This document shows, one piece after another, positions 1 to 54,542 of a DNA stretch of 64,000 nucleotides. The DNA is taken from NCBI GenBank assembly GCA_000091205.1, contig AP006493.2; one strand, given 5' to 3'. Position numbers and translations under genes: made by a program. The notes below the pieces were generated by a model. The model saw only the letters and a program-made list of their open reading frames with translations, was not told the origin of the DNA and did no database searches. This DNA comes from Cyanidioschyzon merolae. Taxonomy: Eukaryota. Numbering within the stretch: the first letter of the stretch is position 1; each line of letters begins with the position of its first letter.

Positions 1-239
1 GTTGTATTGTTCCAAGAGTGTCTGCTTTGAGCAGCAGCGATGGCAGCTATACCGTTGGTGCGGATGCAGCACGGAGACAGAACGGCGTTGCCATACCACT
101 GCGGGCGTCGGCTCGAGGCGTGGTTTAATCGACACGGGGTCGGAGTACATGACAAGTCTGGGAGCCAGGAAGCTGCACATACAGGCGTGCTATCTGCGGG
201 TGCGCGAAGCGATTTGCTGGGAGATAACTGCAGCATGGG

Positions 240-2945
240 CTGCGCCCGGACGCAGCCTAACTGCTCCGAGTCCCAGAATAAACAGCATTGCGGATGCGTT
301 GCTCAGATATCACTACAATGCCTGCCACTGGGGGAAGCATGAAGCATTAGTCTGGGAGACTCGTCCGGCACGCTGGACCTTACTCTATTACGGAAACTTT
401 TCCCCTTTTAACGTTGATCGTAGCGAAGAAAAGAAATTTTTATATCATTGCTTGGTAATGGTGGGTCTCTGCTCTTTGTTCTATGTAGCGCGCTCGATAC
501 GCGCATCTCCATATCTGGCAGGTATGGAACACGACGTGCATCTCGCTGCTAAAAGAGGAACGAGATCCTGACCGTTCGTGTGTAGCTCTAGCTTCCAAGT
601 TGTACGGGGGTTCAAGTCATAGCTGATTATATTCTTTCGATTCAATTGTGTTTCAACCCTCAAGCAAGTATGTTCAAGTGATTTTCCACGGTTTGCATCG
701 GACGCGTATGAAATGAGATCGTTTTCAAAACAAAAAAGGAAGGAAATGGGAATTGAAGCGGAGGATCCCGGAGGCGCATTGTCACCGGCTGGCGGAAAAA
801 AAACGAAAAACAGAGCCCAACGTAGAGACATAAGACAAGACGAAGAAGCAGAAGGCAGAGGCACGACGCCAAAGGCCGCAAGAAAGACGACAGTACGACG
901 AGATGGTGGTGAAAGCCGGTCTTCTTAAACATACCAAGGATCCGTACAAAAAAAGTTGCAAGAGGGCATCGGAAACCGTGTCGCAACCTACTCCACCAGT
1001 GTTTTTAAGGCTTCTCCAGGAATTATGCATTTCATGAGGGAGATGTATCGCGACGTGACGGACATCAACACAGTTGAGGTTCCCGAAGAATCGTTCGACA
1101 CGACCCTTATTCGCCACCTGACGCTTAGCATAGGGGAAACGTCGAGGAGAAATGAGCGAGTAAATGACCTCCACGAATATCACGCCGAATACCGCTTCAA
1201 CGATACTCGATGCAATGGTGACGCGGATATTTACGAATACAGTGCGATGACGTACCTCACGAGTCTGGAGAACAATATGATCATGATCTTGGAACGTTTC
1301 AAGTTATGCTCCTTCTTTGCGCTGTGTCCGGGCCATTCTCGCAAAGGGATATGGAGCATCATCAATCGCGCCACGAATGATTGTAGGAATCAACAGGAGA
1401 TCGAATTCGTTGACAAGAAGGCATCACGTAGGAGTAGGAATGAAGCTTCTGTGATCCGCGCGGCCATTCAAGAGCACCGTGCGGTCTTCGGGCTGCTCAA
1501 TCCGGAAGAAAAGTTATCAGAGATGAAAAAGAGGATGTTATCCACTCATTCTACGGTATTTCGTCTACCTGAACCGAGAACTCGAACGCAAGGCGGAGAT
1601 GGAGCTGGGTATGCGGAAAAATGCAGAGTCGTAGAAACGAAAGGCTGCGCTTCTGGGGAAGCGCTTCGATTTCGTTACGATATGCAACAGCAAGTCACAT
1701 TTTGTGGCAATCAACTCCAGCGTCCTTCATGGCATCATGAGCGAGATCTGTCCGGAGTTCAATGTCAGGAAGACAGAGATCATCGGCGTAAAACCGGGAC
1801 ACGTACAGGAAGAATATCTTCGAGTTCAAACGTCTCGAAATGAGCAAGCAAAAAGTATTTACTGGGATGATCAGAACCGATGGAGTATCCATATGTGCTC
1901 AGTATCCGCGCCTGAGGACGGATCGTCCTATTGTGTCTTTGATATCGCCCTCGGCGAAGCGTGAAGAAAACAACCACGGGGATCCTGTGACGCAGGAGGT
2001 GCAGGAGAACGACTTTGTCGTTGGCGCTGACCCCGGCAACACGAATATCGTCACAATCGCAGTACCCAAGAGTGCGGAAGATGGCATTGACGGCATCTTG
2101 CGTCAGAAAAACATGCATCTTTTAAAGTTCTCGATAGCGAGATACTATCGGGAATCGGGAATAATGAAAGCGAGGAAACAAAATAAGAAATGAAATTCAG
2201 GAATGAAGGCGCACCTGGAAGCGATCAGCAAAGTGACTTGCCGTGGAGCGAGCTTTCGATCCGTCCTGGAGTTCATGGAAGCTCGCGTTGCTCGTGACGA
2301 GTAGCTTTGAAAAGAGTATACAAAGCCCAGGTGGGCTCGTCAGTGTACGAACCTGCACTCTGGGAAACAGCGCGCATTCGCCGAATTGTTCACTGAGTTG
2401 AGCGCCCTCGAGGACCACTAGAGTCAGCGGCTCGTACTAGCATACCGTGCAGGGCGCTGGGCGTCCGAAAAGGGGACATATAAGCCCCATCGACAAGAGC
2501 GTACAGGAAGTTCGCTCGCAGTTTTTTCACGATACCGATACATGAGTTCCGAATATCGTATGTGCACCACGAGCTAATGTGCACACTTCAAAGGGTCGAG
2601 ATGGAAATCTCCCAGCGGATCCCGGAGGATATAGAACAGTATGGAGCGCTGGAGGAACAGCAAATGGAAAGAAGGGCGCAAGTTCGAGGACTCCTTGCAT
2701 TGGTGAGTACAATGAACGCGAAGAAACAGATGGAGTTCGTAAACCGGGACTTGAGCGCCGCCATCAATATCAGGAGACGTACCGTGCTGGACAAGAGACC
2801 CGCGGCGCTGACGCAAGCCAACCTTGTAGGGCAGCCCCTCAAGGTCGAATCACATAAAGACAAGTTGAAACCAGCAGTAGGTGGCCGGTCCAAAACGACT
2901 GAGAGGCGTCTGCACGTGGGCGTAGGGATATCCACGCTATCGGCG
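240..2945 (+). mobile_element. Fanzor/TnpB-like (OMEGA-family RuvC nuclease) element, copy A, degenerate; left boundary uncertain and may run off the window start
   Basis: Aligns by eye in long blocks to 51610-54542 and 32290-33761. Shares their non-coding leader, a K/R-rich NLS-like N-terminus, and RuvC-I/II/III-like motifs in TnpB order. Right boundary set by three-way alignment ending ...tatcggcg at 2945, after which all three copies diverge. Confidence 0.55.
746..2910 (+). pseudogene. Fanzor/TnpB-like RNA-guided endonuclease gene relic, broken by frameshifts and in-frame stops
   Basis: ORF fragments 713-928, 956-1843, 1704-1964, 1840-2193, 2203-2304 and 2562-2999 are co-linear with copy B. 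RuvC-I-like [16 protein letters not shown] at 2008-2055. Helix [20 protein letters not shown] with a candidate RuvC-II Glu. LEAISKVTCRGASFRSVLEFMEA resembles TnpB L-A-K-x-I-S-D-A-G-W-G-E-F-x-x-x-L-E-Y-K-A. Decayed zinc ribbon YRISYVHHELMC. RuvC-III FVNRDLSAAINIRR at 2736-2777. A 1-nt insertion relative to copy B near 1790 and stops at 929, 1632, 2191 and 2302. Confidence 0.55.
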
Positions 2946-3549
2946 TTATGTAGGTACGCATGTATGCCTGGTTTGCCGGCGGCATCGATGCTCTGGTAAT
3001 CTTCCAGGAACGCAGCTTCTAACCAAATGCCCCCTGGTGCGAACATGCCAGCGATAAGCGCGGGAGAGGGTTTACATCCTCGCGATACGCACATACATCC
3101 CATGCGTTTGGGTCTAGTCTTCGCCTCAAAAACAGATGCTTGATCGATACAATGCATCCCCGCGTATTGCGCCTCCAGCTGACACCCTCCGGGGACTGGG
3201 CGCTCGGACGATGCGTTTCTCGGGGCATCATCGCGAGAAATGCGCATCATTGCTGGACGCTGCGTCCGATCTGGTAATGCATGCGTGCCGACGCACCTGT
3301 TTACCCGTCGTCGCATGCGTGCACGCATGCGCCTCGCGGGAAAGAATGACACGCACGCAAGTGCACGCATCAACCCGAGCGTCTCGATGCGTTGTCTCTC
3401 TCTGGAATGACGCAGCGTCGTGTAGCGGCCCTGATGACATCGGCGCAGGGTACGCTGCTTGCACGCTACAGATATAGCAGACTACGCACAGAGACTGAAC
3501 AGTAGTCTTTACGAAGCAGACGAACGTACGATCCTCTGCGCCCCGCCGC

Positions 3550-6695: not shown

Positions 6696-6855
6696 GCAAG
6701 CGTTTCCGATTCACCTTAGTAGCTGCCCAGCGGAACGCTGTCGCACAGGGCACCTTTGTGACGAACGGATAATGCGTCGGTGTCCAGTGCAGCGTCGGAC
6801 AGGCGCCCATCGAAGCATGCGATGCGTTAGCGTACTGCTCGCCGGCCGGCAAGAC

Positions 6856-7337
6856 GTTGTTGTCGGGAGCCGACAACCCGCAGGTCAGCGGAACATCGTT
6901 TAACGGCAATCATGAGGGGATGGAGTGGAGCGGGTTGTTGTCGGGAGCCGACAACCCGCAGGTCAGCGGAACATCGCTTAGCGGCAATCATGAGGGAATG
7001 GAGTGGAGAGACGTTGTTGTCGGGAGCCGACAACCCGCAGGTCAGCGGAACATCGTTTAACGGCAATCATGAGGGGATGGAGTGGAGCGGGTTGTTGTCG
7101 GGAGCCGACAACCCGCAGGTCAGCGGAACATCGCTTAGCGGCAATCATGAGGGAATGGAGTGGAGAGACGTTGTTGTCGGGAGCCGACAACCCGCAGGTC
7201 AGCGGAACATCGTTTAACGGCAATCATGAGGGGATGGAGTGGAGAGACGTTGTTGTCGGGAGCCGACAACCCGCAGGTCAGCGGAACATCGTTTAACGGC
7301 AATCATGAGGGGATGGAGTGGAGCGGGTTGTTTTCAG
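6856..7337. repeat. Tandem minisatellite, 78-79 bp unit, about 6.2 copies, two alternating unit variants
   Basis: Units start at 6856, 6934, 7013, 7091, 7170 and 7249. Each carries the perfect hairpin gttgtcgg-gag-ccgacaac. Variants differ at tcgtttaacgg/tcgcttagcgg and gagcgg/gagagac. Confidence 0.9.
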
Positions 7338-17439: not shown

Positions 17440-17760
17440 ATGTTCTCGTAGAAAGATTATGGAGCATGCCACAGGGTCTGAAGTTTCTACACTCATGCTA
17501 CGAACCGCGGTTTGGAGACACGGAGGCACAATACGTCCGCCTCTGTTGAGGATTGTGATGCATTGACTACCCCGCTATCGATGACGTATGAAACGCGAAT
17601 GCTTCCAACAGCAGCGACGGGTGCTCGTCTTGCTCAGTCAAACTTCCTTCAGATGCAATGGTAGACCTGGATATGGGTACTCAAAAAAAGGGAAAACCGC
17701 TGTTTGTAAAGGAAAGACACGCGAAAATGCCGAGAATATCATCCGTCGCAGCCATTCCAT
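17440..17760 (+). repeat. Diverged dispersed repeat (family R2), copy 1; boundaries approximate
   Basis: Blocks such as cacagggtctgaagtttc and gatgcaatggtagacctggatatgggtactcaaa align with 28140-28440 (cacaggatgtgaagtttc and agaaatggtagacatggacatgggtactcaaa). Confidence 0.35.
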
Positions 17761-20478
17761 CGCATAGGCACCTCTGAATCGCCAACTAGATAGGATCCTT
17801 CAAGACATCATCCTTCGTTGAAGCATTCTTCGCGGCTTCTGCCTCGCACATACCTCTGTCCTGCTGTTGGACAACGTCGCCGTCCATCGCGAGAAAAAAC
17901 CCGGTCAAGGCATACGCAGCTGTGATTGGCGTTGAGCTGCTGATAGCACCAGCCTATGCTCTTTGGTTCAATTGAGTCGAAGGCGTCTCGTCGGTTGTCG
18001 AACGCAAGGTCAACGCGCACGGTCCAATAGACGAGTCGTTCGCATTCGCGTAAACGAATGGTGCGGGACGCCACCAGGGACCGTATAGCGTCGTACGCGA
18101 GGAGTTCTCGCCTAGCTTCTATCGCCCTGAAGCACCTCGGTAAGGAAACGTTCGTGAGCGTTACGGACGGAAGGCTGCACGCTGTGAATATTCCTATGGA
18201 ATTTTTGGATCGGCCCGACGTGCGACAGCACACTTGATGCAGGAAGTGAAGATGCGATGCAGTAGGGGGGTAGGACCAGGGATTGGCGCAGGTGCTTCCC
18301 AGAATAACTTGACACGTCACCACGCGACGTCGAAGATCGAAAAACCTAGAATGCATATGCGAAGTGCCATCAGACCAGGTTCAAGGATGCAAAGCGTATG
18401 CAGGTGAATCCGGAACGCTTCCCAATGCGCACTCTCTAAGCATTGTACGCGGTGGACCCTCATTATCGTATCGCGACAGAGAGGGCGACTGTCTGCAGGG
18501 ATCCCCAGCTTATCGATGGAGGCAAGCGACGGCCTGGTGATGTCTAAAGAGCTCGCGGTAGTACTGAGTTCTGGTTCGTATCGTCTGTGCTCATAGGGTT
18601 GCTCTCGACCTCGGACCGCCGCACATTGCATCCAAAGGACAGTGGAAACGTGATACCCACGTTTCGTGGATCTCGCGCAAATACGTTTTCCTGAACAAGG
18701 CTCCTCGACGCGATACAGACTTCCTCTCTCGATCCGAGCGTCGTATCCTCCTCAAATGACTATGCGATGTGGCCCATATTTCGGGAGATTAAGGCCCATT
18801 ATACCGCCGTAGGCGATTACCTACTGCACTGTGGAGCTTCCTCGATGGGGTACGGCCTGTCTCTGGGTATAACAATGCTGTGCTCGACCGAATTCGTCAA
18901 ATGCGGTAGCGAAGCGCGTTTATGGACGCTCGTATACTGAAAAGTATCGGAATGAATTGTACACGGACGATGAATACCAGAGAAATCTCAGTCTGAATAC
19001 AGTTCGTAAAACCAAGGCCTGACTAAAACAACAAGACTCAATTTTCAGCGGTAAGTGCAGGGAAAGACGTGGTGATACGCGTGGATCCCTGGTTGAAGAG
19101 CATCATGGCCGTCGTGGTACCTCTATATCAAGAGTGCGGTTCCAAAGACCCGGCAGACAAACAGATCAAGCTCCTCGACTTGTTCTGAGTTCAAACTGAT
19201 CGAGATTCGGGCATCACAGACGCCGTGGTGCATACCAACAACTAGAGTAAAGACTTGGCATTCATCTGGGCGGGGTCAGACCCGTGTCGAGCATCGGACG
19301 ATGCTTTGTGCGCTTCATTGCAAGAGTACGTGAGCGTGCATACGGTTCATGCAGACCATCCCTAGCACAAGTACACCAGACCGCCTTGAGGTCGCCAGCG
19401 GTTTCCGTTCTACGGAGGCATGAAGCGTGCTTTCGCGAACTTGTTCAATCAATTGGAAAACAAAATTACCGACGATTTGCTTCGTCTGGCGGCGGCTTCT
19501 CGCCCTTGACATGCTGCACTCCTGATCCTTCGACGAGAGCGTAGAGCGAATGCAGGACTCGATGCCCTACGTGTCCCGTCGAGGCATCACGACGACGTCA
19601 ACGCATCACGAGCACGGCTGCACGCTGAAACTGATGGGCGAGAACAGCATGAGAAAGAGACGGATACACGAGCTGGTGCACGTTGAGCAAGCCGAACGTC
19701 AGCTGGCGAGGTTATCGAATGTAAGCAGCTTGCTATGGCGTGATTCTACCAGCGACCGTGCGCGCAAGCACTTTCTGCCCCTGGACTTGAACACATCCCT
19801 CAACGTCTAGAAAAGCGTCGCGCTGCTGGAGCGTCCGGCGTTCTAGTGTCCAGCGAGCTTTTCAGACACGGAATCGTTTCGTCGTTTCTATAGACATTGT
19901 GCTGAAATGCCGGCGACTAGAAATGGAATAAACCAGTGTTCAGAAGAGAGGACACTGGCTTTCCGTATTGAGTAAGGCATTGGTGGGCCATGGTCCAGCG
20001 ATCGAGAAATGCTGAAGCGTGGTATACTTACTCCGGGAACATTTCTCCAAGGCAATTGATGAATGTTCATGATCTCCCGCGATTCGGTATTACTGAGTAG
20101 AGCATGCCCACGCGCTGGCGCTGTAGCTAGGTGCCTGTAACGAAGAGAGCGCCGTCGCTCCCGTTATCTTTGCCAGCGCTCCAGATCACCTGATACCCCT
20201 GATTTCCTGCATACCAATCTACAAAACGTCTCTTTTGGCGCAGAAACCTATTCGACTATATCGAGGTTTTGGTGTGGAAGCAAAACGTATCCGCGTCCAG
20301 AACTGACGCATGGACATCGATTGGGTTCCAAGCGTACGCGCAACACATGGACAGCGTTTCGTTGCTCAGGCACGATACGAATCCAAAACCGCGTACGCAT
20401 ACCGAGGATATCTTGGGGATGCGCGCTGAGGCAGCGGCTGCACTTAATGCACTCGGCACACATAACAGGAGGCTTCAA

Positions 20479-28139: not shown

Positions 28140-28440
28140 ACGATCAAAGAAGGCACAGGATGTGAAGTTTCCGTTCCGTTGATGCAAACGTCGATGAAGA
28201 GCCGCGGGTTGTCGACGAATCAAGCACGATTGTATGAAATACCGTCGCGCGTTGAACAGTACTCTGTCGATTTCGTCATGAGACAGGAACGCTTATTACA
28301 GAAGGAACAGCTTCCGTTTCACTCGATGGGACTTTATCCAGAAGAAATGGTAGACATGGACATGGGTACTCAAAGAGCGGCAGCACGCTGCTCGAAGAGA
28401 CGAGGCAATCGAGGATTCCGACGACATCTGCACGAGCTGC
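28140..28440 (+). repeat. Diverged dispersed repeat (family R2), copy 2; boundaries approximate
   Basis: See copy 1 at 17440-17760. Confidence 0.35.
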
Positions 28441-29036
28441 GATGCGATCGTGTGGTCGCCTCCAAGTCGCCAAAAGAACAGGATTGATCGAGGCCTTGTC
28501 GTTCCTCGAAGAACCCCTCGTGGCATGCCCTTCCCATATTCTTCCGTCTAGCGCTTAGACATCGTCGCGTTCCATCACTAAAAAACGATAAGAGAGCAAG
28601 CGACTGAGATTGACGCTGAGAAGCTCTGTGCCAGCGTATGCTCTCAGTTTCAGTGCAGTTGAAGGCGGCTTTACTGTTGTCTAACACGATTTCCATACGC
28701 ACTGACCCATAACGAGGTCTTTCGCGTCCGTAACACCGCTCTTTGACAACGTGTTCTTCGGCAGGTTTTCCTCTACATTCACCGCCCGTAAATTGCTTTG
28801 TTGCTTGACTGGACGTGGGCGGAAGGCAACGGAGAGGCGTGCTGGGGTTCATTGGCCTCTTGGCGATAGATTAGGTGATGGTAATGTACTTGACGAATCG
28901 TAGATACGTATGTGGAAAAATCGAGTTTCAGTGCCATCGTGCATTCGTATGCGTCAGAGTCGCTGGGAAAACAAACGTAGAGAGAGCCTAGCGGCCGTAA
29001 ATCTTCGATCCCGCCACATAAGTAAAGACGCGAAGA

Positions 29037-29478
29037 TTGAGCTAGTCTCTGAGAGCAAGTATGAGACGTTCAAGCTACCTCACGACGATACTTGGCGGAG
29101 ATCGTGCAAGGTGCCTGGGTCACGCGGTGGAGTAAATACGAAATCTCATGGACGATAAAGACTGGTAGAACCTCAAGATGTATGCACTCTGTGAGACCTC
29201 GGAGAGTGCCCAGCAACCAGGCACATTTTCAACCGATCAACAAGACGAGGAAAATCGAGCGCATTGCATAGCACTCAGTGTAGGCATTGCGCTGAAATGC
29301 TCCAGACATGCGATTCAAATGAGTTGCTAGAGCAGAGCCGCCACAGGCTTCGCGCCTCAAGCAGGACACTAGTAAAGAACGGTTCAGCAATCTAGAACAG
29401 CTCGAGCGTCGCGTACCTACTCCGGAAAGGGTTTCTTATGCGATAAGCAGTCGGCCATGGTGCTCCACGATTCTATAC
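29037..29478 (+). repeat. Left arm of a ~445-bp inverted repeat pair
   Basis: Reverse complement matches 37953-38395 with about 10 mismatches by eye, from gctagtctctgagagcaagtatgagacg to gtgctccacgattcta. Similarity ends abruptly on both sides. Confidence 0.85.
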
Positions 29479-29904
29479 GACTGAATGTAGCAGGGAAGCA
29501 CATGCTACCAGGGAAAGCTCCAAAGTCCAATGAAACGATCATTACGAGCGCTGCCGCGTTCGCTCAGAACATTTCCCAAACGTGGTTCGAATGAGCTGCC
29601 GCTCCCCCGTAGCTGACCCCAACAAGCCGTCCTCAGTTGCCGCGAGAGCAGGACCTCGCGCTCACGCAGATATATGTATGACAATCAAGATGAAGATGGA
29701 GCCTCTGAACCTGTCCAATTCAGACGCTCGTGAGAAATTCCAAGTCAGATGATAGCAAAGCGTTTTCCTTGGGATATGCAGCCGGTTCCATCATAGCACC
29801 AGCCGCTTCTTGCTCGCGAAACCGTGTAATCGTTGTTGAAGATACTGGTACACGCTAGATTGCGGCAGTTTGTATATACAAGTTCATACCAGTGCGCATG
29901 CTCA

Positions 29905-32289: not shown

Positions 32290-33761
32290 AGTCATTGTAT
32301 ATGTCATTCTCATGCGTTTTTTACTTCCATCTGCGACATGTATCGTCTTTCAACTTAGTTTCGCGTCAACCCCCGCTGCAGTATACAGCAGGAGATCGGT
32401 ATCGGGATGCAATGTATCTTAGCGGTCCAATATGCGTCGTCTATCGCATATATCCTTTACGGAACAGTACCGGAATGACTGCATTCCTTATTCAGGTCAG
32501 TCATACCTCAATATTCTTATGATTGAGGAACACCTATAGAAACAAGTACATGCTTCTCATGTCAAAACCGATATTCTCATAGCTTGCTTGCGGTCTCTGG
32601 TATATAAACGACTCGTTGATCACCGTGCGGAAAACAAAAGCGACGATCGTAGCCACTAAAGGCGTCTCTGTTTCTCAACAGTACGTTCGCGTGGTCCTGA
32701 AAACACTGGGGTACAGTTGCAAAAAAGGGTTCTAGTTCTTGCACAGCCATCCCTAACCGAAATCGGTACTACTGCAGTATTCTTGGAACGTCACGATCGT
32801 TCTGAAGAAGAGAAGATTCGGTTTATTTTTCAGTCGACGAGACCTTCTTCGAACGAGACAGTTGGAGCTTGTATGGGTATTCGCGGAGTAGGAAGCCCGT
32901 TCTACGTACAATCGAGCTCGACGAGAACGACGGCATTCTCTGTTCTAGCTGTAGTGAGCTCATTTGGCCGCCTCAGTTTCGCTAGTAGAGAAGGCTCATA
33001 CACCAGCATCAACCCCTTTGTCGCATCATTGAAGACTTTTCCCCGACGCTCGGCGACGTCCTCTCACAGGACACCGTGCATTTGAGAATTCTCGTTGCGT
33101 TCGAGCGTTCACCGATGGTATCGGGGCAGAGCTGCGTATCATGCCCCCGTACATGCCGTGCTTCATTCCTATCAAAGGAGTCTTTTCGATCGTTGCATTT
33201 CATGATAGCTGCACTCTTCGATTCGCTGAAGCGTTCAGCACACAATGCCACACTAGGGCGCATTTCGTGTTTCTTCCGCACGTTCATCTACCTCAGGGAA
33301 CGTCCTCACCTAAGGCCATAACAGAGAACGTTTATTTCCAAATAAAAAAATCCAAGGAACGAGTTAGAGTGTGCACCTCAGAAAGTCGACATGGAGAGAA
33401 GGCCGCCGAACGCTTCGGGGATAGAAAAGCACAGAGAGCTGACACAGTCGCAAATGCCCCAGAGGGCCCGAGTTCGAGGATTCCTTTCATCGGAGCGTTC
33501 CACCAGCTGCAATGAATGCATCAAGTTCGTGAACCGAGACTTGTAGCTGCTTTCAATATCAGACGATATGCGGTGCTGAAGACGAGGCCCGTAGAGCTGA
33601 CGAGATACAAATCTATGGAGCAGCTTCTCATGCTCGAAGCTAACAAGGAGAAGCCCAAACAGATAGCAAACGGCCAGTCCAAAATGACGCGGGGGTGTCT
33701 GTACGTCGGTATTCATTTACTACCCACCATCGTAGGATGATCATTCGTTTTATCGATGACG
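32290..33761 (+). mobile_element. Fanzor/TnpB-like element copy C, an internally deleted (non-autonomous-like) derivative that keeps the leader and the 3' part
   Basis: 32290-33000 aligns to the copy B leader (51610-52330). 33170-33761 aligns to copy A 2230-2945, including a RuvC-III remnant KFVNRDL / VAAFNIRR split by a frameshift at 33523-33570. About 1.4 kb of the nuclease core is missing. Ends ...tatcgatga at 33759. Confidence 0.55.
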
Positions 33762-37652: not shown

Positions 37653-37952
37653 CGCAGTCCGCTACAAAGCGAAAGTTACTGTAAGCGTTAAAGATGCACA
37701 AGCACGGACGCCGCTGAGGGCATGTGCGCGAACCCTGTCTGCTTTATACATAAAATTCAAGGATCAATGCTTGGACTCGGCGCGCGATCCTGCGATCACC
37801 CGGCGATGAGGGCGGGAAGCACACTATTTGTGACAAGATAGAACACATATGTATATACCAACCCTGTGGAGAGTCTCCGCAAAGCATTCAGGTACGGCCA
37901 CGCTCCCCCAGCGACAGCTAAAGTATATGCTTGTTGCACGTATATACCGTTG

Positions 37953-38395
37953 TGTAGAATCTTGGAGCACCATGACCGACTGCTTATCGCATAAGAAACC
38001 CTTTCCGGAGTAGGTGCGCGACGCTCGAGCTGTTCTAGATTGCTGAACCGTTCTTTACTAGTGTCCTGCTTGAGGCGCGAAGCCTGTGGCGGCTCTGCTC
38101 TAGCAACTCATGTGAATCGCATGTCTGGATCATTTCAGCGCAATGCCTATACTGAGTGCTATGCAATGCGCTCGATTTTCCTCGTCTTGTTGATCGGTTG
38201 AAATTGTGCCTGGTTGCTGGGCACTCTCCGAGGTCTCACAGAGTGCATACATCTTGAGGTTCTACCAGTCTTTATCGTCCATGAGATTTCGTATTTACTC
38301 CACCGCGTGACGCAAGCACCTTGCACGATCTCCACCAAGTATCGTCGTGAGGTAGCTTGAATGTCTCATACTTGCTCTCAGAGACTAGCCGTAGC
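37953..38395 (-). repeat. Right arm of the ~445-bp inverted repeat pair (partner of 29037-29478)
   Basis: Reverse-complement identity with the left arm; see that feature. Confidence 0.85.
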
Positions 38396-40411
38396 TCACA
38401 GTGACGGTCGCGCACGACACAAGTGCCTGCGGTATTATAATGGGCCCTATTCGGACATATAGGGACAACGTTCTATTGACGCTTGAGAGGGGTGGAGCGT
38501 TCGGATTCGGGCTGCGCTTTTGCTTGTCTCTGGCATGTATACTTTAGGAACACATAGAAGCGCAAGACGCAAGGCAGACAGGGAGACATTCACTGTGTTT
38601 CGGGCATGCGATGGATACGTTGTCCGTCGGCTCGTGTCCGAGAGCAACTCGATATGTCTGGATGATATAAAGCGAGTCTCGCTCTCATTTGCGGATATCG
38701 TCCGAACTCGTTACCAAATCAATCTCTTCCGCCGACACCTCGTTATTTGTCCCGATCGACAGCCCATGAATGCCTTCCATCCGTCCCAAATTTTCTGCGC
38801 CCGTCCGGATAGGCCACAACGGATGCAACGCCCATAGAATGCGCTCGACGTTGACCCACACATGGTTGAGGTTTCTGAGGTTCATCTGATAGCTTCTGTC
38901 ACCTGTGCAATAGATTTTTGGGGTCGCAAATGTGGTACGGCGACCTGCCGAGGTATGTTGGGAATCTTGCAGGTAACACGCTGGCCCTATAATCAGACGG
39001 CCTCGCGTCTGCTATCCCGCGCATCAGTTGTGTTGTTGTACTAGGCTTGGATCCAAAAATCTCTGAGGAATATGCTCAGCCGGCTGCCCTGCATCTGGTA
39101 CCCGTGTGAACACTTGCTTACGAGATTTTCCAAGACGAGAAGAGCTAGGGGAGCCTTCCTGGCATCATGTGGTTTACGATCCCCAACGACGTCCTGCGTT
39201 TTGCTCTTTGAAACATTCACCCCGTTGACCTGTTTCATTAATGAAGGTCTTCACTGCGGTTCAGACCGATCTTTCCGCTCCGTGTGTCTTCGCTCCCTGT
39301 TCTTCCTAGTTCGCTTTTCGGGGGAATTTTTCTCTTCTTCGACCGATGGTTTCCGTTTCTTCTCCTTTAGCTCGCGGGGTGGCATGAGTGGGTTCGCTTA
39401 ACACCATACCCATTTTGTTTCCCCGACGGATTCATACGCATTGCGTGGAAAGCACAACGGAAGCTCACATTGTCTGTATACGTACACATCAACTATTCGT
39501 TGCGTCCCCTTTGATTATCTTCTCTGTCGCGAGCACGCTCCGGCACCGGGACGCGCTTTTCCGCTCTCTCCCGCACATGCGCAGAGCATCAGCAGAGTAG
39601 TTCAGGGTTGTCGACGACAGAGTACGATTTCCGGAACACCAGTGTCACGCATGTGAACAACTCGTCTAATGATACTTGAGCGAAAATATCGAGATTCACA
39701 GTGCTGAGGACGCCTTCGACGAGGCTGAACTAGGGAGAACAGACCGGCAAGAAGAACAGCTTTCCGCCAGTCTCATCTGCGTCATACTCGACCATTTTCT
39801 ACACAAAAAAGTCAGTGCCGGCTACAATCAGGACTCAAACGTATGGGAAGGGGCTGCCACGAAGTGCTTCCAGGTAGGCTGAGGTGTCAAGCGATCCTAT
39901 TCGTCCAGCACTTCGTGGGCGAGCACACGATCGCATCACAGCTCTGACTCGTGTCGTTGTCCTTCTCGATAGTCTCTTCTTCACCAACAGCGGGTTGTCT
40001 CTCTACGAATACGCATATGCGTCTCTGCCGTGTTTCCCAAACCAAGTTGCACGGGAGCACAACGTCCCTGCTTGGGCTTTCTGTAACAGCTACGCTACAA
40101 GAATCAATTCGGTGGCACTGCATCCCAGGCTTCAACCCGAAATCTTCAAAGAATTGAAGAGTCTTCTACCTGCGACCATGTGTTTCCAGATAATCCTACA
40201 GTTTTCGTTTCCACCTTCGCTGGCACCAGAGCCCGAGTTCTCCGCATGGCACCCACTGAAGACCCTATGAGCATCGAAACCGTTCTTCGCTTGAGAGTGA
40301 GCGCGCGCGAGTACGCCATACAGCGTCCACAGTCTCGTACTGTCTTTTGCAACTGGCTTCCGCTGCGACCTCTGTTGGCTAGGAACGAGCGTCACGAGTT
40401 TTATGTACTGA

Positions 40412-45046: not shown

Positions 45047-48000
45047 TGGTGCAGCCGGTCCTGGTTCGCGCCAAAGCGTAGCTAGATCTTTTGCATTCAC
45101 AGGACTGGTATGCTTCAGCTCATCGCGAGGTTTGCGCAGTGCTCAAGGACCACAGAGGACCTTGGTGTGCGTTAGTGATGCTTTGCGTGCATCTCGTCTT
45201 TTGGACTGGAGCCTTTTTCTGGGACGGACAGCCTCGCTGCATCAATGTTGCTGTTGAGCGGAGCAATCCGTGGCACACTCTGGTCTTGTATGATCGACGC
45301 TTGTAGGCAGGTCTCCTCTCGTGGTGCCAGCACGATCGCCGAGGGCACTTCAGCAACAAGGTCGTCTATTTCGTGGCGGTATTCTCGAGCACTCGACAGG
45401 ACCCGATAACTTGTTCCTGATACCGACACCCTGCTTTCCTTAAGCACATGCTCGTTTTTGAGAATGCGACATCTGCGTCTCTGGTGCTTTTTCGTGCAAT
45501 GTAGAATCTATGCATCTGTCGATAATTTTGCTCTGGAAATGCGCGCTCCGGCGTGGTGTTGATGCTGGTTAACAGGATCCGGTTTTTTATGTTGCAAAAT
45601 AAATGAGTCTGACCAGAACTCCACGAAGGTGCAATTGCTATTGCTAATCAGGCTAGACAACAGTGTCGCTCGTCAGGCACGCCCACCTTACCCAAACCCA
45701 GACCTGGATTTTCGTCGGGATTAGAGACGAGAACGATACCGTAATTCTTCGGATGCATGGTTACGTCCAGTGCGTGACGCTGTAATAGCAGTTTTATCTG
45801 GGTCCGCCTAGTCTCCTGCAGTCAACATCCGCTCACAGGGACCTGGTGTTCACCATCGCTCGCTCATTGCCCGAGACGCTCCGAGTGTATTGGCGAGCAG
45901 GTTTCCCCAGCATACATGTGCCAACCGCAATGCTCGTGAATCCACCGCCACAAGTAGATCAAGTGCAGCGACCTGGAGATCATCCTGCTCGATGAGCGAT
46001 GCTCCATTTTCAAGCTGATGGATCGCGATGGCTTGCTTTCTCGTTTCTTCAAAAATGTTAGGGATCGCTCGCATCTCGCTTTTGTTCAAACGAATGCCGT
46101 ATGCTCTGCATTATCCCGGATGAGCTAAGACGGGTTCCAAGCAGTCGGGTAGGCGCGTGTGCGTCTCCTGGGGTCCTTGGAAGATGCAAAGGCGCAAAAT
46201 CGCTCCTGCAGCGAAGCACGGTTGGTGACATTCATGTCCTTGCGCACGAAAGAGACGCACAAACCTGCAACGCCCTGGATACAACCCTGCTGCACAATGC
46301 TGAAACGTCCTGCTCTTGAACTCGAGCCGATTTCGTTGTGGCAATTGGCAACCCGGGTCCGCCTGAACGCAAGCAGCATTGTTGTTTCTCGACACTGCGG
46401 GATCAAGCTTCGAGTCGTGCTTGATCGACCATTCGGAAGAGCACAATGAGTGCGAACCAATCTGGCTGCTTGTTATCGAATCTATCGATCTGGGCATTCT
46501 ATCCAGGTCGTGCTTCGATTCGCAACCTGAGCGATTTGCTGAAAGAAAAGCGTCAGTTTCAGCGCACCGAACGAGAAGGGCAACGCATCCCAGATGCTTT
46601 ATACACACGGAATAATATCGAATAACGGAACACCGTTGTCGATCAGGTATTGCCCAGGAAACCCGTTCCAGGAGTGTTGATAAATAGACAACATTCGAGC
46701 CTTTCTGAATTTCCGGACAGTGCCACATCAGCTCCTGCGCTCATTCATGAAGCCAATACCCTCTATCCTGGCCACGAACGTTTCTCTCGCAAAGCTTCAG
46801 ATTTTCAGGGCAATGCCTGTGCTGCGTACGAAACCATTGCATGGAAAGTTCGCTCGACACAAAACTTCTGGACGCTCCGGACGCAAGAGATACTTCCAGA
46901 TATTGATTGAGGCATTCAAGTACAGGTGCAGAAAGTGCTTGTGTGCTTGGTTACTAGATGAATCACTACGTAGCAAGCCTCTCACTATCGTTTTCACCGC
47001 CATTTGACGTTAGCTCACATTACTGGACACCATACCTCGCATCCATCGCTATCTCACGCTTCCCTGTTCTACCAGTTTCAACATGCACCCGTGCTCTTGC
47101 TGCGTGTATGTCGTCTTGAAGCCATTGACGGCACTCGAGCGATGCCGATTCCCGCATTCGTTGTATGCTCTCGTCGATAGCGGAGGAGGTTTTGCTAGCA
47201 CGTTACAAAACGTCCAGTTCCATAGATTACTTTAAAAAAGACATGATTCATACCTCATTTCCATTTCAAAATCATTACAGGAAACGGAGAATAATCGGTT
47301 CTCGCCTCTGTACAACTGTAACTAGTGACGACACAGACACCGTCGTACGCTCTCCTGCCCGAGATCACCTGCATGAGCTATTTGAACACTCAAGTACATC
47401 CGGGATGAAGTACACAACGCACTTATCTCTGCTTGATAAGCTGCCCAGAGTTTCTAAATCGGCCTTGAAGTCGTCATACCGCCAGGCGGTATGCCTCCTG
47501 GCAACCAGAATGACCGACTCCAGATGATACAACGCTTTGGAACAAGAGCGCTGCTTCATCTGCTGTACATTCAGGTTGATGGATCGGTCCTCATGCGTTA
47601 TCGCGTTGGCGACGGTCGTGGTATTCATAGTCCCGGGATCCACGCTCATAACAAGTCGTTCTCTTGATCTGGATTCAACCCTTTTGAAAATGAGTCTTCG
47701 TGCTCAATTCAGACCTAGATTTTACAATGAATATGTAGAACGATATTCCATCCGCCCCTATGGTCCATGTAAACAAGAAAACTAAAACGAAATTCACCCA
47801 CGCGCTTCGCGAACTTGTGCCAATGCTTCGTGCTCGCTCGTCGAAACGAACACCCTCTTCTTTCCCTTTGCTCGGCCGGATGGTATGGATTTGGTCGTCG
47901 TACCTTTTTTTCCGTATGTTTGCCTTGTGATTCAGATGCACGAGACCAACGGTGGCAATGAACCTTGCCTTTTCTACGTATGTTTGTACCTGCAACGATT

Positions 48001-51609: not shown

Positions 51610-54542
51610 GGTATCGTCTAGGGAAAGAAAAACGGAATTCGATGACGCGATTTGTCCAGCGTTGCGCGCGAGTCGCGAAACGTCGTCCTTCAGCTGAATT
51701 CCGTTCCATACCCGCTGCGTTGTATCACAGGAGATCGAAATCCGGATGCAATGTACTCTATAGATCGTGGACGAATTGCCTGAAGGACATATATTCCTTA
51801 CTGTACAGTGCAGGGGCGACTCTATTTCTCCTCCGGGTGAGCCTTAACACAGTATTCAGATGCGTGAGGAACGCGAAAAGAAAGAATCAGATGTGCTCCG
51901 CGTCGAAAACTAACATTCTCAGAGCGTGCTTGCGGTCAATGGTAGAAAACGGACCATTGATCACCGCATGGAGACCAAAAGCGACGAAAGCAGCTACCAT
52001 GGGTGTCTCTGTTTCTCAACAGCTTGTTCGCGTGGTCCTGAAATCACCCGGATAAAGTCGTAAAAATGTCCAATCTCATTCATAGCTATCATCTACCGAA
52101 ATTGCAGCGACAGCGTTCCTCGAACGTCGCTGTCGGTATAGAGCACAGGGACGTCGATTTGTTTATTCAGTCGATGATGGCTCCTTCGGATGACACGGTC
52201 GGAGCGTAGACGGGTATTCGCAGAGAAGGTGCCCGTTGAATGTGCGGTGGAACTCGAACAGAACGACGACATCAACTGTTCTGACTGCAGTGGATTCTTT
52301 TCCCAGCCTGAGTGTCGCTCATAGAAATGGATATGCAAGTCGAGGATCCCAGAGGCCCGGTGTCGCCTGCTGCCGGAAAACGGAAAGCTGTACCTAGCAA
52401 AGGGGAACAGGAGAAGACCAAGATGCAGAAGTAGGATGCGAAGCGTCAAAAGCAATTCGAAAGAAGACTGTATGACTAGACGGTGGTGGGAGCCTTGCTT
52501 CTAGGCGCTATCAAGGACCACTACCAGCGAGACTTGTAGGAGGCCATGAGAAACGTTTTCGTGTCTTACTCCAAGAAATGTATGTAACGCTTGTTTAGAA
52601 ATGAGGCATTTGGTCGAGTTTTACAATGACTCACGGACATCAACACAGTCGCGGTTCCGAAGGGATTTTTCAGCAGGATCTTCATTCGTCACCTGATGCT
52701 TGGAACAGGGAAATCTTCGACGAAAAATGAGGGAGTACATGCTCTCCAGCAAAATTACGCCCAATACCGCTTCAGCGGCATTCGAGACAGGGACGACTCA
52801 GATACTTACACGGATGATGCAATGAGGAACCTCACGCACCCGAGGAACTATATGATCGTGAAACTCGTAAGTTTCATGATACGCTGCATCATTGCGCTGT
52901 ACCCGGGCCTCTCTTGCAGTGGGATCCGGGCCATCATCAACGACATAGTACACGATCTCCGGAATGAACGGAAGATCGAAGTAGTCGACAAGAAAGACAT
53001 CACGCAGGAGAAGGAATGAAGCATCTGTTTCTCGTGCGACTATTCAAAAGTACCGTGCGGTTCTGGGGCTGGCGAATCCAGCAGAAAAGGTATCAGGTAT
53101 GAAAAAGGATGGTATCATCTCATCCTAAGCTACTTCGGATACCTGAACTGAGAACGAGTACGCCAGACAGAGATGGAGCTGAGTTCGGCGAAAAAATGAG
53201 TTGGAGAAACGGAAGGCTGCGCTTCTGGGGAAGCGCTTCAACGTCGTTCCGTTGTGCACCGTCAAGTCACACTCTGTGACTATCGACTCCAGAGTCCTTC
53301 ACGGCATCATGAAGAAAGAACGTTTCGAGCTCGATGTTAGCAACAAGGAATTCACGGGTGGAAACCAGGAGACGTACTGGAAGAGTATTTTCGATTTCAG
53401 ACGTCTCAAAATGAGCAAGAAAGAGGTACTCACTGGAGTAATCGAAATCGATGGAGCAGCCATGTGTGTACACTATCGGTGCTTCAAGGAGGCGGATCGT
53501 CCTGATCTGTCTTCGATATCGCACTTGGTGGAGCTTGAAGAAAACAAAGAGACGGATACTGCGACGCAGAAGGTACAGAAGAACGACTTTGTCATTGGCG
53601 CTGGTCCCGGGAACACGCAAATCGTTACCACGACTGCTCCCAAGTATGAGGAAGATGGCGCTGGTGGCAACTTGCGTCAGAAAGACATGCGACTTTTGAG
53701 GTTCTCAACAGCGAGATATTATCGAGAATCGGAAAAATGAATGTGAGGAAACAATTTGAGACATGGAATGCAGGAGTGAAAGCGCATTTGAGGCGATCAG
53801 CCAGGTGACTAGCCGTGGAGCGAGCTTTGGAGCTTTTCGGGTATTCATGAAAGTTAGCGTTCCTCACTGGAGAGCGCTGTAAAAAGAGTATACAAAGCCC
53901 CAGTGGGCTCGTCTGCGTGTGAATCTGTACTATGGGAAGCAGCGTACATTTGCCAACTTTTTCAATGAGTTGAGCGCCTTTAACAAGCACAAGGGTCAGA
54001 GGCTCGTAGTATCACAGCGAGCATGATGCTGGATGGCCCAAAAAGGGACTACGCCAGCTCCAACGTCAAGAACGTACAAGGAGTGTGCACGGCGTTTTGT
54101 CAGGATACCGATATGTGAGTACCGAACGTCATACGTGCACCATGAGCTGGGGTGTACACTTCAGAGGGTCGAGCGGGAAAAGTGCCAGCGGGCCCTGAGG
54201 ATCTGCTCAAGTACGGAGTGCTGACGGGGCAGGAAATGGCACGGATGGCATGTGTTCGAGGACTACTTGCATTGGTGATTACAACCAATGGCAAGAAACG
54301 TGTGGAGTTCTTGAACAGAGACTTGAACGCTGCTATCAATATAAGGAGATGTGCGGTGATGGAGAAGAGACCTGCAGCTCTAACAAGAGAGAATTTTGTG
54401 GGAGAACCTCTCAAGGTGGAATTATATTTGAAAAAGTTGAAACTAGAAGTAGGCGGCCGGTCCAAAAAGGCTGAAAGGCGTCATCGCATGGACGTCCATT
54501 TACTCTCCATGGTTATGATACATATTTGCTGCACTATCGGCG
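51610..54542 (+). mobile_element. Fanzor/TnpB-like element, copy B, degenerate
   Basis: Leader 51610-52326 aligns to copies A and C. ORF fragments 52327-52431, 52630-53019, 53201-53740, 54033-54224 and 54152-54679 are co-linear with copy A. Ends ...ctatcggcga at 54543. Confidence 0.55.
52327..54480 (+). pseudogene. Fanzor/TnpB-like RNA-guided endonuclease gene relic
   Basis: RuvC-I-like [16 protein letters not shown] at 53582-53629, with the catalytic Asp replaced by Gly. ARYYRESEK then stop. AFEAISQVTSRGASFGAFRVFMKVS. Zinc-ribbon remnant YRTSYVHHELGC. RuvC-III FLNRDLNAAINIRR at 54308-54349. 1-nt deletion relative to copy A near 54190; multiple stops between 53020 and 54030. Confidence 0.55.

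What the first reader, a model, noticed from the sequence alone, without database searches (positions are those of the whole stretch)
32290..33761. Internally deleted derivative (copy C) keeps both ends of the Fanzor-like element
Copy C keeps about 700 bp of leader and about 600 bp of the 3' part, including the RuvC-III remnant and the terminal non-coding tail. It lacks about 1.4 kb of nuclease core. Non-autonomous transposons typically keep only the cis-required ends in this way. For OMEGA systems the retained 3' end is also where the guide-RNA scaffold lies.
Basis: partly seen in the sequence, partly recalled or inferred. Interest (0 to 1): 0.65.

Follow-up and report, generated by a model that had tools for sequence, protein, structure and literature searches.

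The report
Fanzor-deleted Tc1-like transposon relic
Copy C is a decayed 1.4 kb transposon that keeps a Tc1/IS630-type transposase gene and only the last ~120 codons of a Fanzor nuclease gene; the same deletion occurs at four other loci, so it is an ordinary old deletion subfamily of a known kind of Fanzor-carrying transposon.

Summary
C (about 32342-33761) shares 652 bp at its 5' side with copy B and about 370 bp at its 3' side with copies A and B. The 364 bp between these is not Fanzor sequence.

The "leader" plus that middle piece is a pseudogene of a DD34E IS630/Tc1-type transposase. An 11-copy consensus scores NCBIfam IS630 E 3e-30 and Pfam DDE_3 E 2.5e-18.

A and B belong to the published Fanzor1 family CMe-1A of Cyanidioschyzon merolae (80% identity to its consensus). 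C is collinear over its whole length with paralogous 1.4 kb copies at unrelated loci in metagenome contigs of the same species. Five loci share exactly the same deletion junction. A second deletion type occurs at three loci.

Intact transposase-then-Fanzor1 transposons exist on other contigs, one with 28-nt terminal inverted repeats.

C is therefore a dead member of a propagated subfamily. That subfamily arose when a Tc1-like/Fanzor1 composite lost Fanzor codons 1 to about 610 but kept the transposase gene and the right end.

Nothing shows that the retained tail is maintained as a guide-RNA gene: it decays as fast as the rest. This is a new member of a known kind, of modest interest.

The parts
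32342..32405 (+). Left end / 5' untranslated region of element C. Family consensus: GTCTTTCAACTCAATTTCGTTCCAC...
   Evidence: Conservation among paralogous copies rises from background (0.45-0.5) to about 0.8 at C 32342-32350. Upstream flanks are unrelated (pairwise identity 0.35).
32406..33310 (+). Pseudogene of an IS630/Tc1-type DD34E (DDE_3) transposase. HTH part about 32457-32753. First D in FSVDETFF at about 32830-32850. IMPPYMPCFIPIKG at 33138-33179, with the catalytic E changed to K.
   Evidence: tblastn of the consensus transposase: aa 12-109 at 32457-32753 and aa 48-296 at 32564-33310. C alone gives HTH_33 E 6e-4, NCBIfam IS630 E 4e-4 and a collinear DDE_3 match at E 0.13. The family consensus gives IS630 105.5 bits (cut-off 100, E 3.4e-30) and DDE_3 66.8 bits (cut-off 28.6). 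At least four frame changes and several stops.
33311..33359 (+). Spacer with an A-run: transposase 3' UTR plus the remnant of the Fanzor 5' UTR (GTTTATTTCCAAATAAAAAAATCCAAGGAA), ending at the deletion junction (33359|33360).
   Evidence: The same GCGTTC.TTT.CAAAAAAA..AAGGAA stretch lies 45 bp upstream of the Fanzor ATG in solo Fanzor units and in L011/L012. The junction is shared by C, L025, L027, L030 and L035b.
33360..33707 (+). Remnant of the Fanzor1 C-terminus (CMe-1 residues about 611-728), from HELGC..VEME onwards.
   Evidence: tblastn of CMe-1 Fanzor: aa 611-673 at 33358-33543 and aa 675-728 at 33546-33707. 68.8% identical to CMe-1A consensus 2739-3092.
33526..33566 (+). Disrupted RuvC-III motif (FVNRDL, TAG stop, AAFNIRR in the next frame).
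   Evidence: Read directly from the sequence and compared with the consensus FVNRDFNAAINIRR.
33708..33761 (+). Terminal non-coding tail with a predicted hairpin (33728-33758). The 3' boundary lies between about 33726 and 33761.
   Evidence: Conservation is 0.62 from about 33705 to 33760, then background. Pairwise identity is only 0.43 among the five same-junction copies. The hairpin appears in the MFE fold.
51662..52330 (+). Copy B, transposase N-terminal part (aa 11-191), joined at AGAAATGG to the Fanzor start codon.
52327..54533 (+). Copy B, Fanzor1 pseudogene (CMe-1A 906-3081, 79.9%) with a v1-type 3' end.
1..2920 (+). Copy A, a CMe-1A unit (consensus 141-3088, 80.2%) cut by the window start. 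It has a TE-N2-like leader, no transposase, and a Fanzor pseudogene.
17609..19837 (+). Copy D, an older decayed composite: transposase aa 129-282, then Fanzor aa 70-689.
38323..40047 (-). Copy E, a decayed composite on the minus strand: transposase aa 140-284 (40047-39625), then Fanzor aa 245-360 (38685-38323).

Best explanation
Copy C (about 32342-33761, + strand) is a decayed copy of a 1.4 kb DNA-transposon subfamily. Its parent was a composite Tc1/IS630-like transposon with this layout: left end, a DD34E transposase gene of about 300 codons, a short spacer, a Fanzor1 gene of about 734 codons (the CMe-1 family of Cyanidioschyzon), and the right end. A single deletion with ATG/ATGAG microhomology removed the stretch from the Fanzor start codon to about codon 610, roughly 1.83 kb. 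What remained was the transposase gene, the Fanzor 5' UTR, the last ~120 Fanzor codons including RuvC-III, and the right terminus. Shown: this shorter element then spread to at least five loci. Inferred: it spread by cut-and-paste using its own or a sister copy's transposase, and the 3' tail survived because the right end is needed in cis. All copies, including C, have since decayed neutrally to about 80% identity with their consensus. C now has frameshifts, stop codons and an E-to-K change at the third catalytic residue, so it is immobile and non-coding.
For: (1) C is collinear over its entire length with L025 (68%), L027, L030 and L035:11619-12971, whose flanks are unrelated.
(2) The consensus of 11 copies restores a transposase. 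It scores NCBIfam IS630 at 105.5 bits (E 3.4e-30), above the cut-off, and DDE_3 at 66.8 bits. It matches intact ~300-aa DDE_3 proteins at 46-50% identity (E down to 6e-73).
(3) The junction is identical in C, L025, L027, L030 and L035b.
(4) L011, L012-15 and L038 keep the Fanzor region from -45 to about codon 45 between the transposase and the tail. L023 is a third variant. These are independent deletions of a composite parent.
(5) Copy B is transposase aa 11-191 fused at the Fanzor ATG to a full Fanzor. Window copies D and E show transposase followed by Fanzor.
(6) Intact composites exist. L036 has a 300-aa transposase and a 702-aa Fanzor1. L037 has 298 aa and 627 aa. hhalign gives probability 100% with E 1e-157 and 2e-172. 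L037 has 28-nt TIRs.
(7) The nuclease family is Fanzor1. Its profile hits solved PpFz, SpuFz and GtFz (E 1e-19 to 6e-6), and the fold search gives TM 0.70 to SpuFz. A and B are 80% identical to the published CMe-1A consensus.
(8) Decay looks neutral: pairwise identity is 0.66 in the transposase and 0.68 in the tail, and differences are equal at all three codon positions.
Against: No terminal inverted repeats reach significance in C, its paralogues or their consensus (p 0.07-0.97), and no TA target duplication could be established. Mobilisation by the DDE transposase is therefore inferred from family membership, not shown. No intact full-length composite was recovered from this species itself, only decayed ones (B, D, E). 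Four of the five same-junction copies share a +2 frameshift at an A-run in the transposase, so the subfamily may already have been transposase-defective when it spread. Assigning the paralogous contigs to one genome rests on their coming from the same samples as contigs 99% identical to the window.
Confidence: 0.8

Rival explanations
1. One reading: C is a non-autonomous, MITE-like internal-deletion derivative of the A/B-type Fanzor element, keeping only a non-coding leader and the 3' end needed in cis.
For: Both flanking parts match B. The same deletion recurs at other loci. Four of the five copies share a frameshift in the transposase, so spread may have needed transposase supplied in trans.
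Against: The 'leader' and the 364 bp unique to C encode a DDE_3/IS630 transposase. Copy A and all solo Fanzor units (CMe-1A) lack this module and carry a different leader of at least 740 bp. C shares no 5' end with them.
Confidence: 0.1
2. C-type elements are chimeras, not deletion products. An independent Tc1-like element acquired a 3' fragment of a CMe-1A unit by nested insertion, 5'-truncated insertion or ectopic recombination.
For: Bao and Jurka (PMC3627910) note that Fanzor elements are often chimeric. Two 3'-end variants exist, and L030 carries a C-type body with the CMe-1A-type (v2) end, which shows recombination between the families.
Against: C-type copies keep the Fanzor 5' UTR right up to the start codon, next to the tail. 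L011, L012 and L038 keep both the first ~45 and the last ~90 Fanzor codons. Intact and decayed transposase-then-Fanzor composites exist with the same gene order and spacing.
Confidence: 0.07
3. The tail is kept because it still encodes a working omega RNA. C-type elements would then be guide-RNA carriers that exploit Fanzor protein supplied in trans by the many CMe-1A copies.
For: In Fanzor and TnpB systems the guide RNA is transcribed from the transposon's right-end region (PMC10432273, PMC10530073). Three independent deletion types all keep at least ~270 bp of the 3' end. The tail RNA folds somewhat better than shuffles: z -2.3 for C and -2.8 for the consensus.
Against: The tail is no better conserved than the dead transposase gene (0.68 against 0.66). 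The last 54 bp are poorly conserved (0.43). RNAalifold finds only 12 weak pairs at -4.2 kcal/mol. There are no Rfam matches. Keeping the right end is what any cut-and-paste element must do anyway.
Confidence: 0.08

Closest known systems
CMe-1 / CMe-1A Fanzor1 elements of Cyanidioschyzon merolae (Bao and Jurka 2013, Mobile DNA 4:12; PMC3627910)
   Same: Window copies A and B are 80.2% and 79.9% identical to the published 3169-bp CMe-1A consensus, the divergence that paper reports for its ~150 copies. C's tail matches consensus 2739-3092 at 68.8%. Like CMe-1A, C shows no detectable TIRs or TSDs.
   Different: CMe-1A has a 5' part of about 900 bp, of which the first 635 bp match the element TE-N2_CMe (PMC3627910). 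It has no transposase, and its class was left 'unknown'. C carries an IS630/Tc1-type transposase gene instead, lacks Fanzor codons 1 to about 610, and has a different last ~60 bp (v1 against v2 end).
Mariner/Tc1 transposons that carry Fanzor1 (PUl-1, PUl-2 and PGv-1 in Bao and Jurka 2013; the Fanzor1c-Mariner/Tc1 association in Jiang et al. 2023, PMC10530073)
   Same: A transposase gene comes first and Fanzor1 follows downstream on the same strand inside one element. This is seen intact in L036 and L037 and decayed in window copies B, D and E. L037 has 28-nt TIRs beginning with TA.
   Different: C has lost almost the whole Fanzor gene. TIRs and TA duplications cannot be demonstrated in this old family.
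Internal-deletion derivatives of cut-and-paste DNA transposons (non-autonomous elements, MITE precursors)
   Same: One microhomology-mediated internal deletion, both ends kept, then amplification of the shortened element.
   Different: The deletion removed the passenger nuclease gene, not the transposase gene. The derivative therefore kept the transposase gene when it formed.
IS200/IS605 and IS607 OMEGA elements (TnpB plus an omega RNA at the right end)
   Same: The retained segment corresponds to the 3' end of the nuclease gene plus the right end, where omega RNAs are encoded.
   Different: The mobility gene here is a DDE transposase, not a Y1 or serine recombinase. No omega RNA has been demonstrated for this family.

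Membership tests
IS630/Tc1-mariner (DDE_3) transposon | Transposase with a DDE_3 catalytic domain above the curated thresholds | tested here: met
   The family consensus scores NCBIfam IS630 at 105.5 bits (cut-off 100) and Pfam DDE_3 at 66.8 bits (cut-off 28.6). C alone is below threshold (E 4e-4 and 0.13) but collinear.
IS630/Tc1-mariner (DDE_3) transposon | DD34E catalytic triad | tested here: met
   The consensus has D (SVDET), D (LLLDNV) and, 35 positions later, E (FIPIEG), read. In C the E is K (PIKG) and the frame is broken, so C itself is inactive.
IS630/Tc1-mariner (DDE_3) transposon | Terminal inverted repeats | tested here: not met
   Local alignment of the ends against 500-1000 shuffles gives p 0.86 for C, 0.07-0.94 for the paralogues and 0.97 for the consensus. 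The positive control L037 gives p<0.001. A gapped match (GTC..CTCAAT..CGTTCCAC against GTGGGACG..ATTGAC..GAC) is only post hoc.
IS630/Tc1-mariner (DDE_3) transposon | TA target-site duplication | tested here: inconclusive
   TA lies immediately 5' of the element in three of eight copies. The 3' boundary is too uncertain to pair it with, and no empty site was available.
Fanzor1 (the parent gene of C's tail) | RuvC-I D, RuvC-II E and RuvC-III D motifs, with sequence and fold similarity to solved Fanzor1 | tested here: met
   Family motifs are [15 protein letters not shown] and FVNRDFNAAINIRR. The profile hits 9cf0, 8gkh and 9cer at E 1e-19, 4e-11 and 6e-6. Foldseek gives TMt 0.70 and E 4e-16 to SpuFz. 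C keeps only the RuvC-III part, and it is disrupted.
CMe-1A (Repbase-type family of C. merolae) | About 80% identity to the 3169-bp consensus, including its 5' TE-N2-like region | tested here: not met
   A and B meet it (80.2% and 79.9%). C matches only consensus 2739-3092, at 68.8%, plus 27 bp of the Fanzor 5' UTR. It has none of the leader.
Non-autonomous (transposase-less) deletion derivative | No transposase coding region, only cis ends | tested here: not met
   About 900 bp of C are a transposase pseudogene.
Non-autonomous (transposase-less) deletion derivative | The same deletion present in several dispersed copies | tested here: met
   The junction is identical at five loci with unrelated flanks.
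OMEGA-type guide RNA (omega RNA / fRNA) locus | A conserved, structured non-coding RNA at the 3' end of the nuclease gene and the right end | tested here: inconclusive
   z-scores are -1.85 to -2.8. RNAalifold gives -4.2 kcal/mol with 12 pairs. There are no Rfam hits and no excess conservation.
OMEGA-type guide RNA (omega RNA / fRNA) locus | Expression and loading of the RNA into the nuclease | not testable with these tools
   This needs small-RNA sequencing or RNP pull-down.

The most novel reading that the evidence does not exclude
The Fanzor-less subfamily kept the right-end segment because it still produced an omega RNA. Transposase-bearing elements would then 'borrow' Fanzor protein from the ~150 CMe-1A copies for RNA-guided homing or maintenance. 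At the same time this would reveal that the unclassified CMe-1A family of Cyanidioschyzon descends from, and was once mobilised with, a Tc1/IS630-type transposon.
Probability: 0.08. Interest if true: 0.6.

Novelty: new member of a known kind. Interest (0 to 1): 0.3.

Why it matters
Practically, it corrects an annotation trap. The '5' leader' of some Fanzor copies in this red-alga-like genome is a transposase pseudogene, and the region is a graveyard of one old transposon lineage.

Scientifically, it gives a plausible class for the CMe-1 Fanzor family, which its describers left unclassified: it was once the passenger of a Tc1/IS630-type DD34E transposon. It also provides a natural experiment showing that elements spread after losing the Fanzor gene, provided they kept the right end.

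That is consistent with Fanzor being dispensable for the transposition step itself, and it delimits at most ~270-400 bp as the retained 3' region. None of this is surprising to a transposon specialist, and every copy examined is dead.

Tried and rejected
1. Pfam on single reading-frame pieces of A, B and C gave almost nothing. Only frameshift-corrected and then consensus sequences were informative.
2. A word-indexed protein search with C's own pseudo-protein found nothing.
3. tblastn against plasmids gave only a weak (E 0.3) but collinear hit to an annotated IS630 transposase.
4. phmmer and a shallow profile of the Fanzor family against the PDB found nothing. The first AlphaFold run with 11 close sequences was useless (pLDDT 33). 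A 43-sequence alignment fixed both.
5. TIR searches with the repeat finder and with shuffle-controlled local alignment were negative for this family.
6. RNAalifold on 15 tails gave no convincing shared structure, and Rfam gave nothing.
7. I tried to decide whether the transposase was intact when the subfamily spread by comparing shared indels. The result is ambiguous because the key indel sits in an A-run.
8. I first considered that B and C arose by independent nested insertions of Fanzor units into a transposase element. I rejected this after finding intact composites and copies that keep both Fanzor ends.
9. Exact-protein look-ups of two long window ORFs to name the organism failed. Identity with Cyanidioschyzon rests on the CMe-1A match.

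Full report
**Observation.** A self-comparison of the window confirms three related copies. A (1-2920) and B (52324-54495) align over 2.2 kb at 73% identity. C aligns with B at 32343-32994 = B 51683-52330 (68.5%, E 3.5e-89). C also aligns at 33359-33726 = B 54144-54509 (64%) and A 2569-2920. Two things did not fit a simple internal deletion. First, C carries 364 bp (32995-33358) that neither A nor B has. Second, the A-B homology starts exactly where the B-C 5' homology stops, at B 52324-52330. All three copies are broken by frameshifts and stops at different places, so all are pseudogenes.

**What the 'leader' is.** By eye, C contains remnants such as GVSVSQQYVRVVLKTLGYSCKK, FSVDETFF and IMPPYMPCFIPIKG. 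A frameshift-corrected translation of C gave weak but collinear matches: HTH_33 (E 6e-4), NCBIfam IS630 transposase (E 4e-4) and DDE_3 (E 0.13).

I then scanned metagenome contigs with the B and C pseudo-protein alignment, which returned 25 loci. L007 and L017 lie on one contig and are the window's own C and B. They and L008-10, L016, L018 and L024 are 99.0-99.3% identical to the window over 1.1-9 kb, so they come from the same species. The remaining loci are paralogues.

A majority consensus of 11 copies restores the protein. It scores NCBIfam IS630 family transposase at 105.5 bits (cut-off 100, E 3.4e-30, profile positions 17-280 of 299) and Pfam DDE_3 at 66.8 bits (cut-off 28.6). It has a DD34E arrangement. 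It also matches intact ~300-aa DDE_3 proteins at 46-50% identity (E down to 6e-73). So the 'leader' plus the 364 bp unique to C is a transposase gene. In C that gene has several frame changes, stops and E-to-K at the third catalytic residue.

**What the nuclease is.** A frameshift-corrected Fanzor from copy A finds 53 metagenomic relatives. A profile search finds 1457. A 43-sequence profile hits solved Fanzor1 proteins: Parasitella E 1e-19, Spizellomyces 4e-11 and Guillardia 6e-6. An AlphaFold model (pLDDT 80) has SpuFz as its best structural match (TMt 0.70, E 4e-16).

The family is already described. The CMe-1A consensus from the supplement of Bao and Jurka 2013 (PMC3627910) matches A at 80.2% (consensus 141-3088) and B at 79.9% (consensus 906-3081, starting at the Fanzor ATG). 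C's tail matches consensus 2739-3092 at 68.8%. That paper reports about 150 copies at ~80% identity to the consensus in Cyanidioschyzon merolae, with no TIRs, undetermined TSDs and unknown class. The window therefore comes from C. merolae or a very close relative.

**C is a family member, not a one-off.** C is collinear over its whole length with L025 (3687-5055, 68%), L027, L030 and L035:11619-12971. Column conservation rises from background (0.45-0.5) to about 0.8 at C 32342-32350. It stays there to about 33705, drops to 0.62 up to about 33760, and then returns to background. Flank identity is 0.33-0.35, which is random.

The junction is identical in C, L025, L027, L030 and L035b. The Fanzor 5' UTR (GCGTTCATTTTCAAAAAAA..AAGGAA) is joined to (AT)GAGCTGGGGTGTGCAC, which is Fanzor codon ~611 (HELGC), with ATG/ATGAG microhomology.

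L011, L012-15 and L038 carry a different deletion that keeps the Fanzor region from -45 to about codon 45. L023 is a third variant. In B, transposase residue ~131-191 is joined at AGAAATGG to the Fanzor start codon.

**The parent architecture.** Two contigs from other sources carry an intact transposase followed on the same strand by an intact Fanzor1. L036 has 300 aa then 702 aa. L037 has 298 aa then 627 aa. hhalign to the family profile gives probability 100% with E 1e-157 and 2e-172. L037 is bounded by 28-nt TIRs, TACACTCAG...TGTTACA.

Inside the window, older remnants show the same gene order. D (17609-19837) has transposase aa 129-282 followed by Fanzor aa 70-689. E (40047-38323, minus strand) has transposase followed by Fanzor.

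Fanzor1 inside Mariner/Tc1 elements is a known association (PMC3627910; PMC10530073). Solo CMe-1A units share with the composite only the stretch from 45 bp upstream of the ATG to the end. They have their own leader and a different last ~60 bp.

**Mechanism.** Shown: there was one deletion event and it was dispersed to at least five loci. The transposase gene and right end were retained. Decay has been neutral and equal across parts (pairwise identity 0.66 in the transposase and 0.68 in the tail; differences of 0.32/0.32/0.33 at the three codon positions).

Inferred: the element moved by cut-and-paste using the DD34E transposase, and the tail is there because the right terminus is needed in cis.

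Not shown: TIRs (p 0.07-0.97) and TSDs. It is also unclear whether the transposase was intact during the burst, because four of the five copies share a +2 indel in an A-run.

**Guide-RNA idea.** The literature places Fanzor guide RNAs at the right-end region. For this tail the evidence is thin. RNAalifold gives only 12 pairs at -4.2 kcal/mol. Rfam gives nothing. Folding z-scores are modest, from -1.85 to -2.8. The tail is no better conserved than the dead transposase gene, and the last 54 bp are poorly conserved. The idea is neither supported nor excluded for the time when the elements were active.

**Verdict.** Interest is modest.

Noticed in passing
window 17609-19837 (+): A further, much older composite copy ('D'): transposase aa 129-282 (17609-18071) runs directly into Fanzor aa ~70 (18057) and continues to aa 689 (19837). 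Identities are 29-34% at the protein level.
   Followed up: partly
window 29041-29489 and 37941-38389; also 28317-28519 and 38323-40047: A 449-nt inverted repeat (96% complementary) brackets the 8.4 kb segment that contains the CysRS gene, copy C and the aldo-keto reductase gene. One arm lies just downstream of a transposase remnant (F, 28317-28519), and the other arm lies within decayed composite E. At 96% the two arms are far more alike than any other pair of copies, which suggests gene conversion or a recent inverted duplication.
   Followed up: partly
window 46845-47666 (-): Another decayed Fanzor remnant ('G'; CMe-1 aa ~420-697). The 64 kb window therefore holds at least seven relics of this lineage (A-G).
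   Followed up: no
L004 5900-5990, L006 8330-8420, L032 7575-7665, L035 7280-7370, L030 1460-1540; CMe-1A consensus 3090-3169: The elements have two alternative 3' ends after GGCGTCTGCACGTCGG. v1 (TATTCATTTACTC...) is found in Tnp-linked copies and B. v2 (TTGGAGACGTTTCGTCTAGGGCGCGGTTGCCGCCACTACTGTACAC, with two small hairpins whose loops vary) is found in solo CMe-1A units. L030 has a C-type body with a v2 end, so it is a recombinant.
   Followed up: partly
window 33745-33761 against CMe-1A consensus 1-24: The first bases of the published CMe-1A consensus (CGATGACAAAACGTTTACATTGAC) resemble, in direct orientation, the last bases of the v1 3' end (consensus GGGACGTTTTCGTTTCATTGACGAC; C: CGTTTTATCGATGACG). 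This may be a shared terminal motif or a preferred insertion next to an existing end. It is unexplained.
   Followed up: no
L033 1824-4751 (-) and 4917-7353 (+): Two CMe-1A units lie head-to-head, abutting within about 6 bp at their 5' ends.
   Followed up: no
window 6777-7335: A tandem repeat of a ~78-79 bp unit (6 overlapping 166-nt copies; the last ones are 95-98% identical), downstream of the MutS-like ORF (3550-6294).
   Followed up: no
L004 814-2710 (-): A reverse-transcriptase (RVT_1) ORF and a 474-aa ORF lie just upstream of a solo CMe-1A unit. This is probably an unrelated retroelement neighbour.
   Followed up: no
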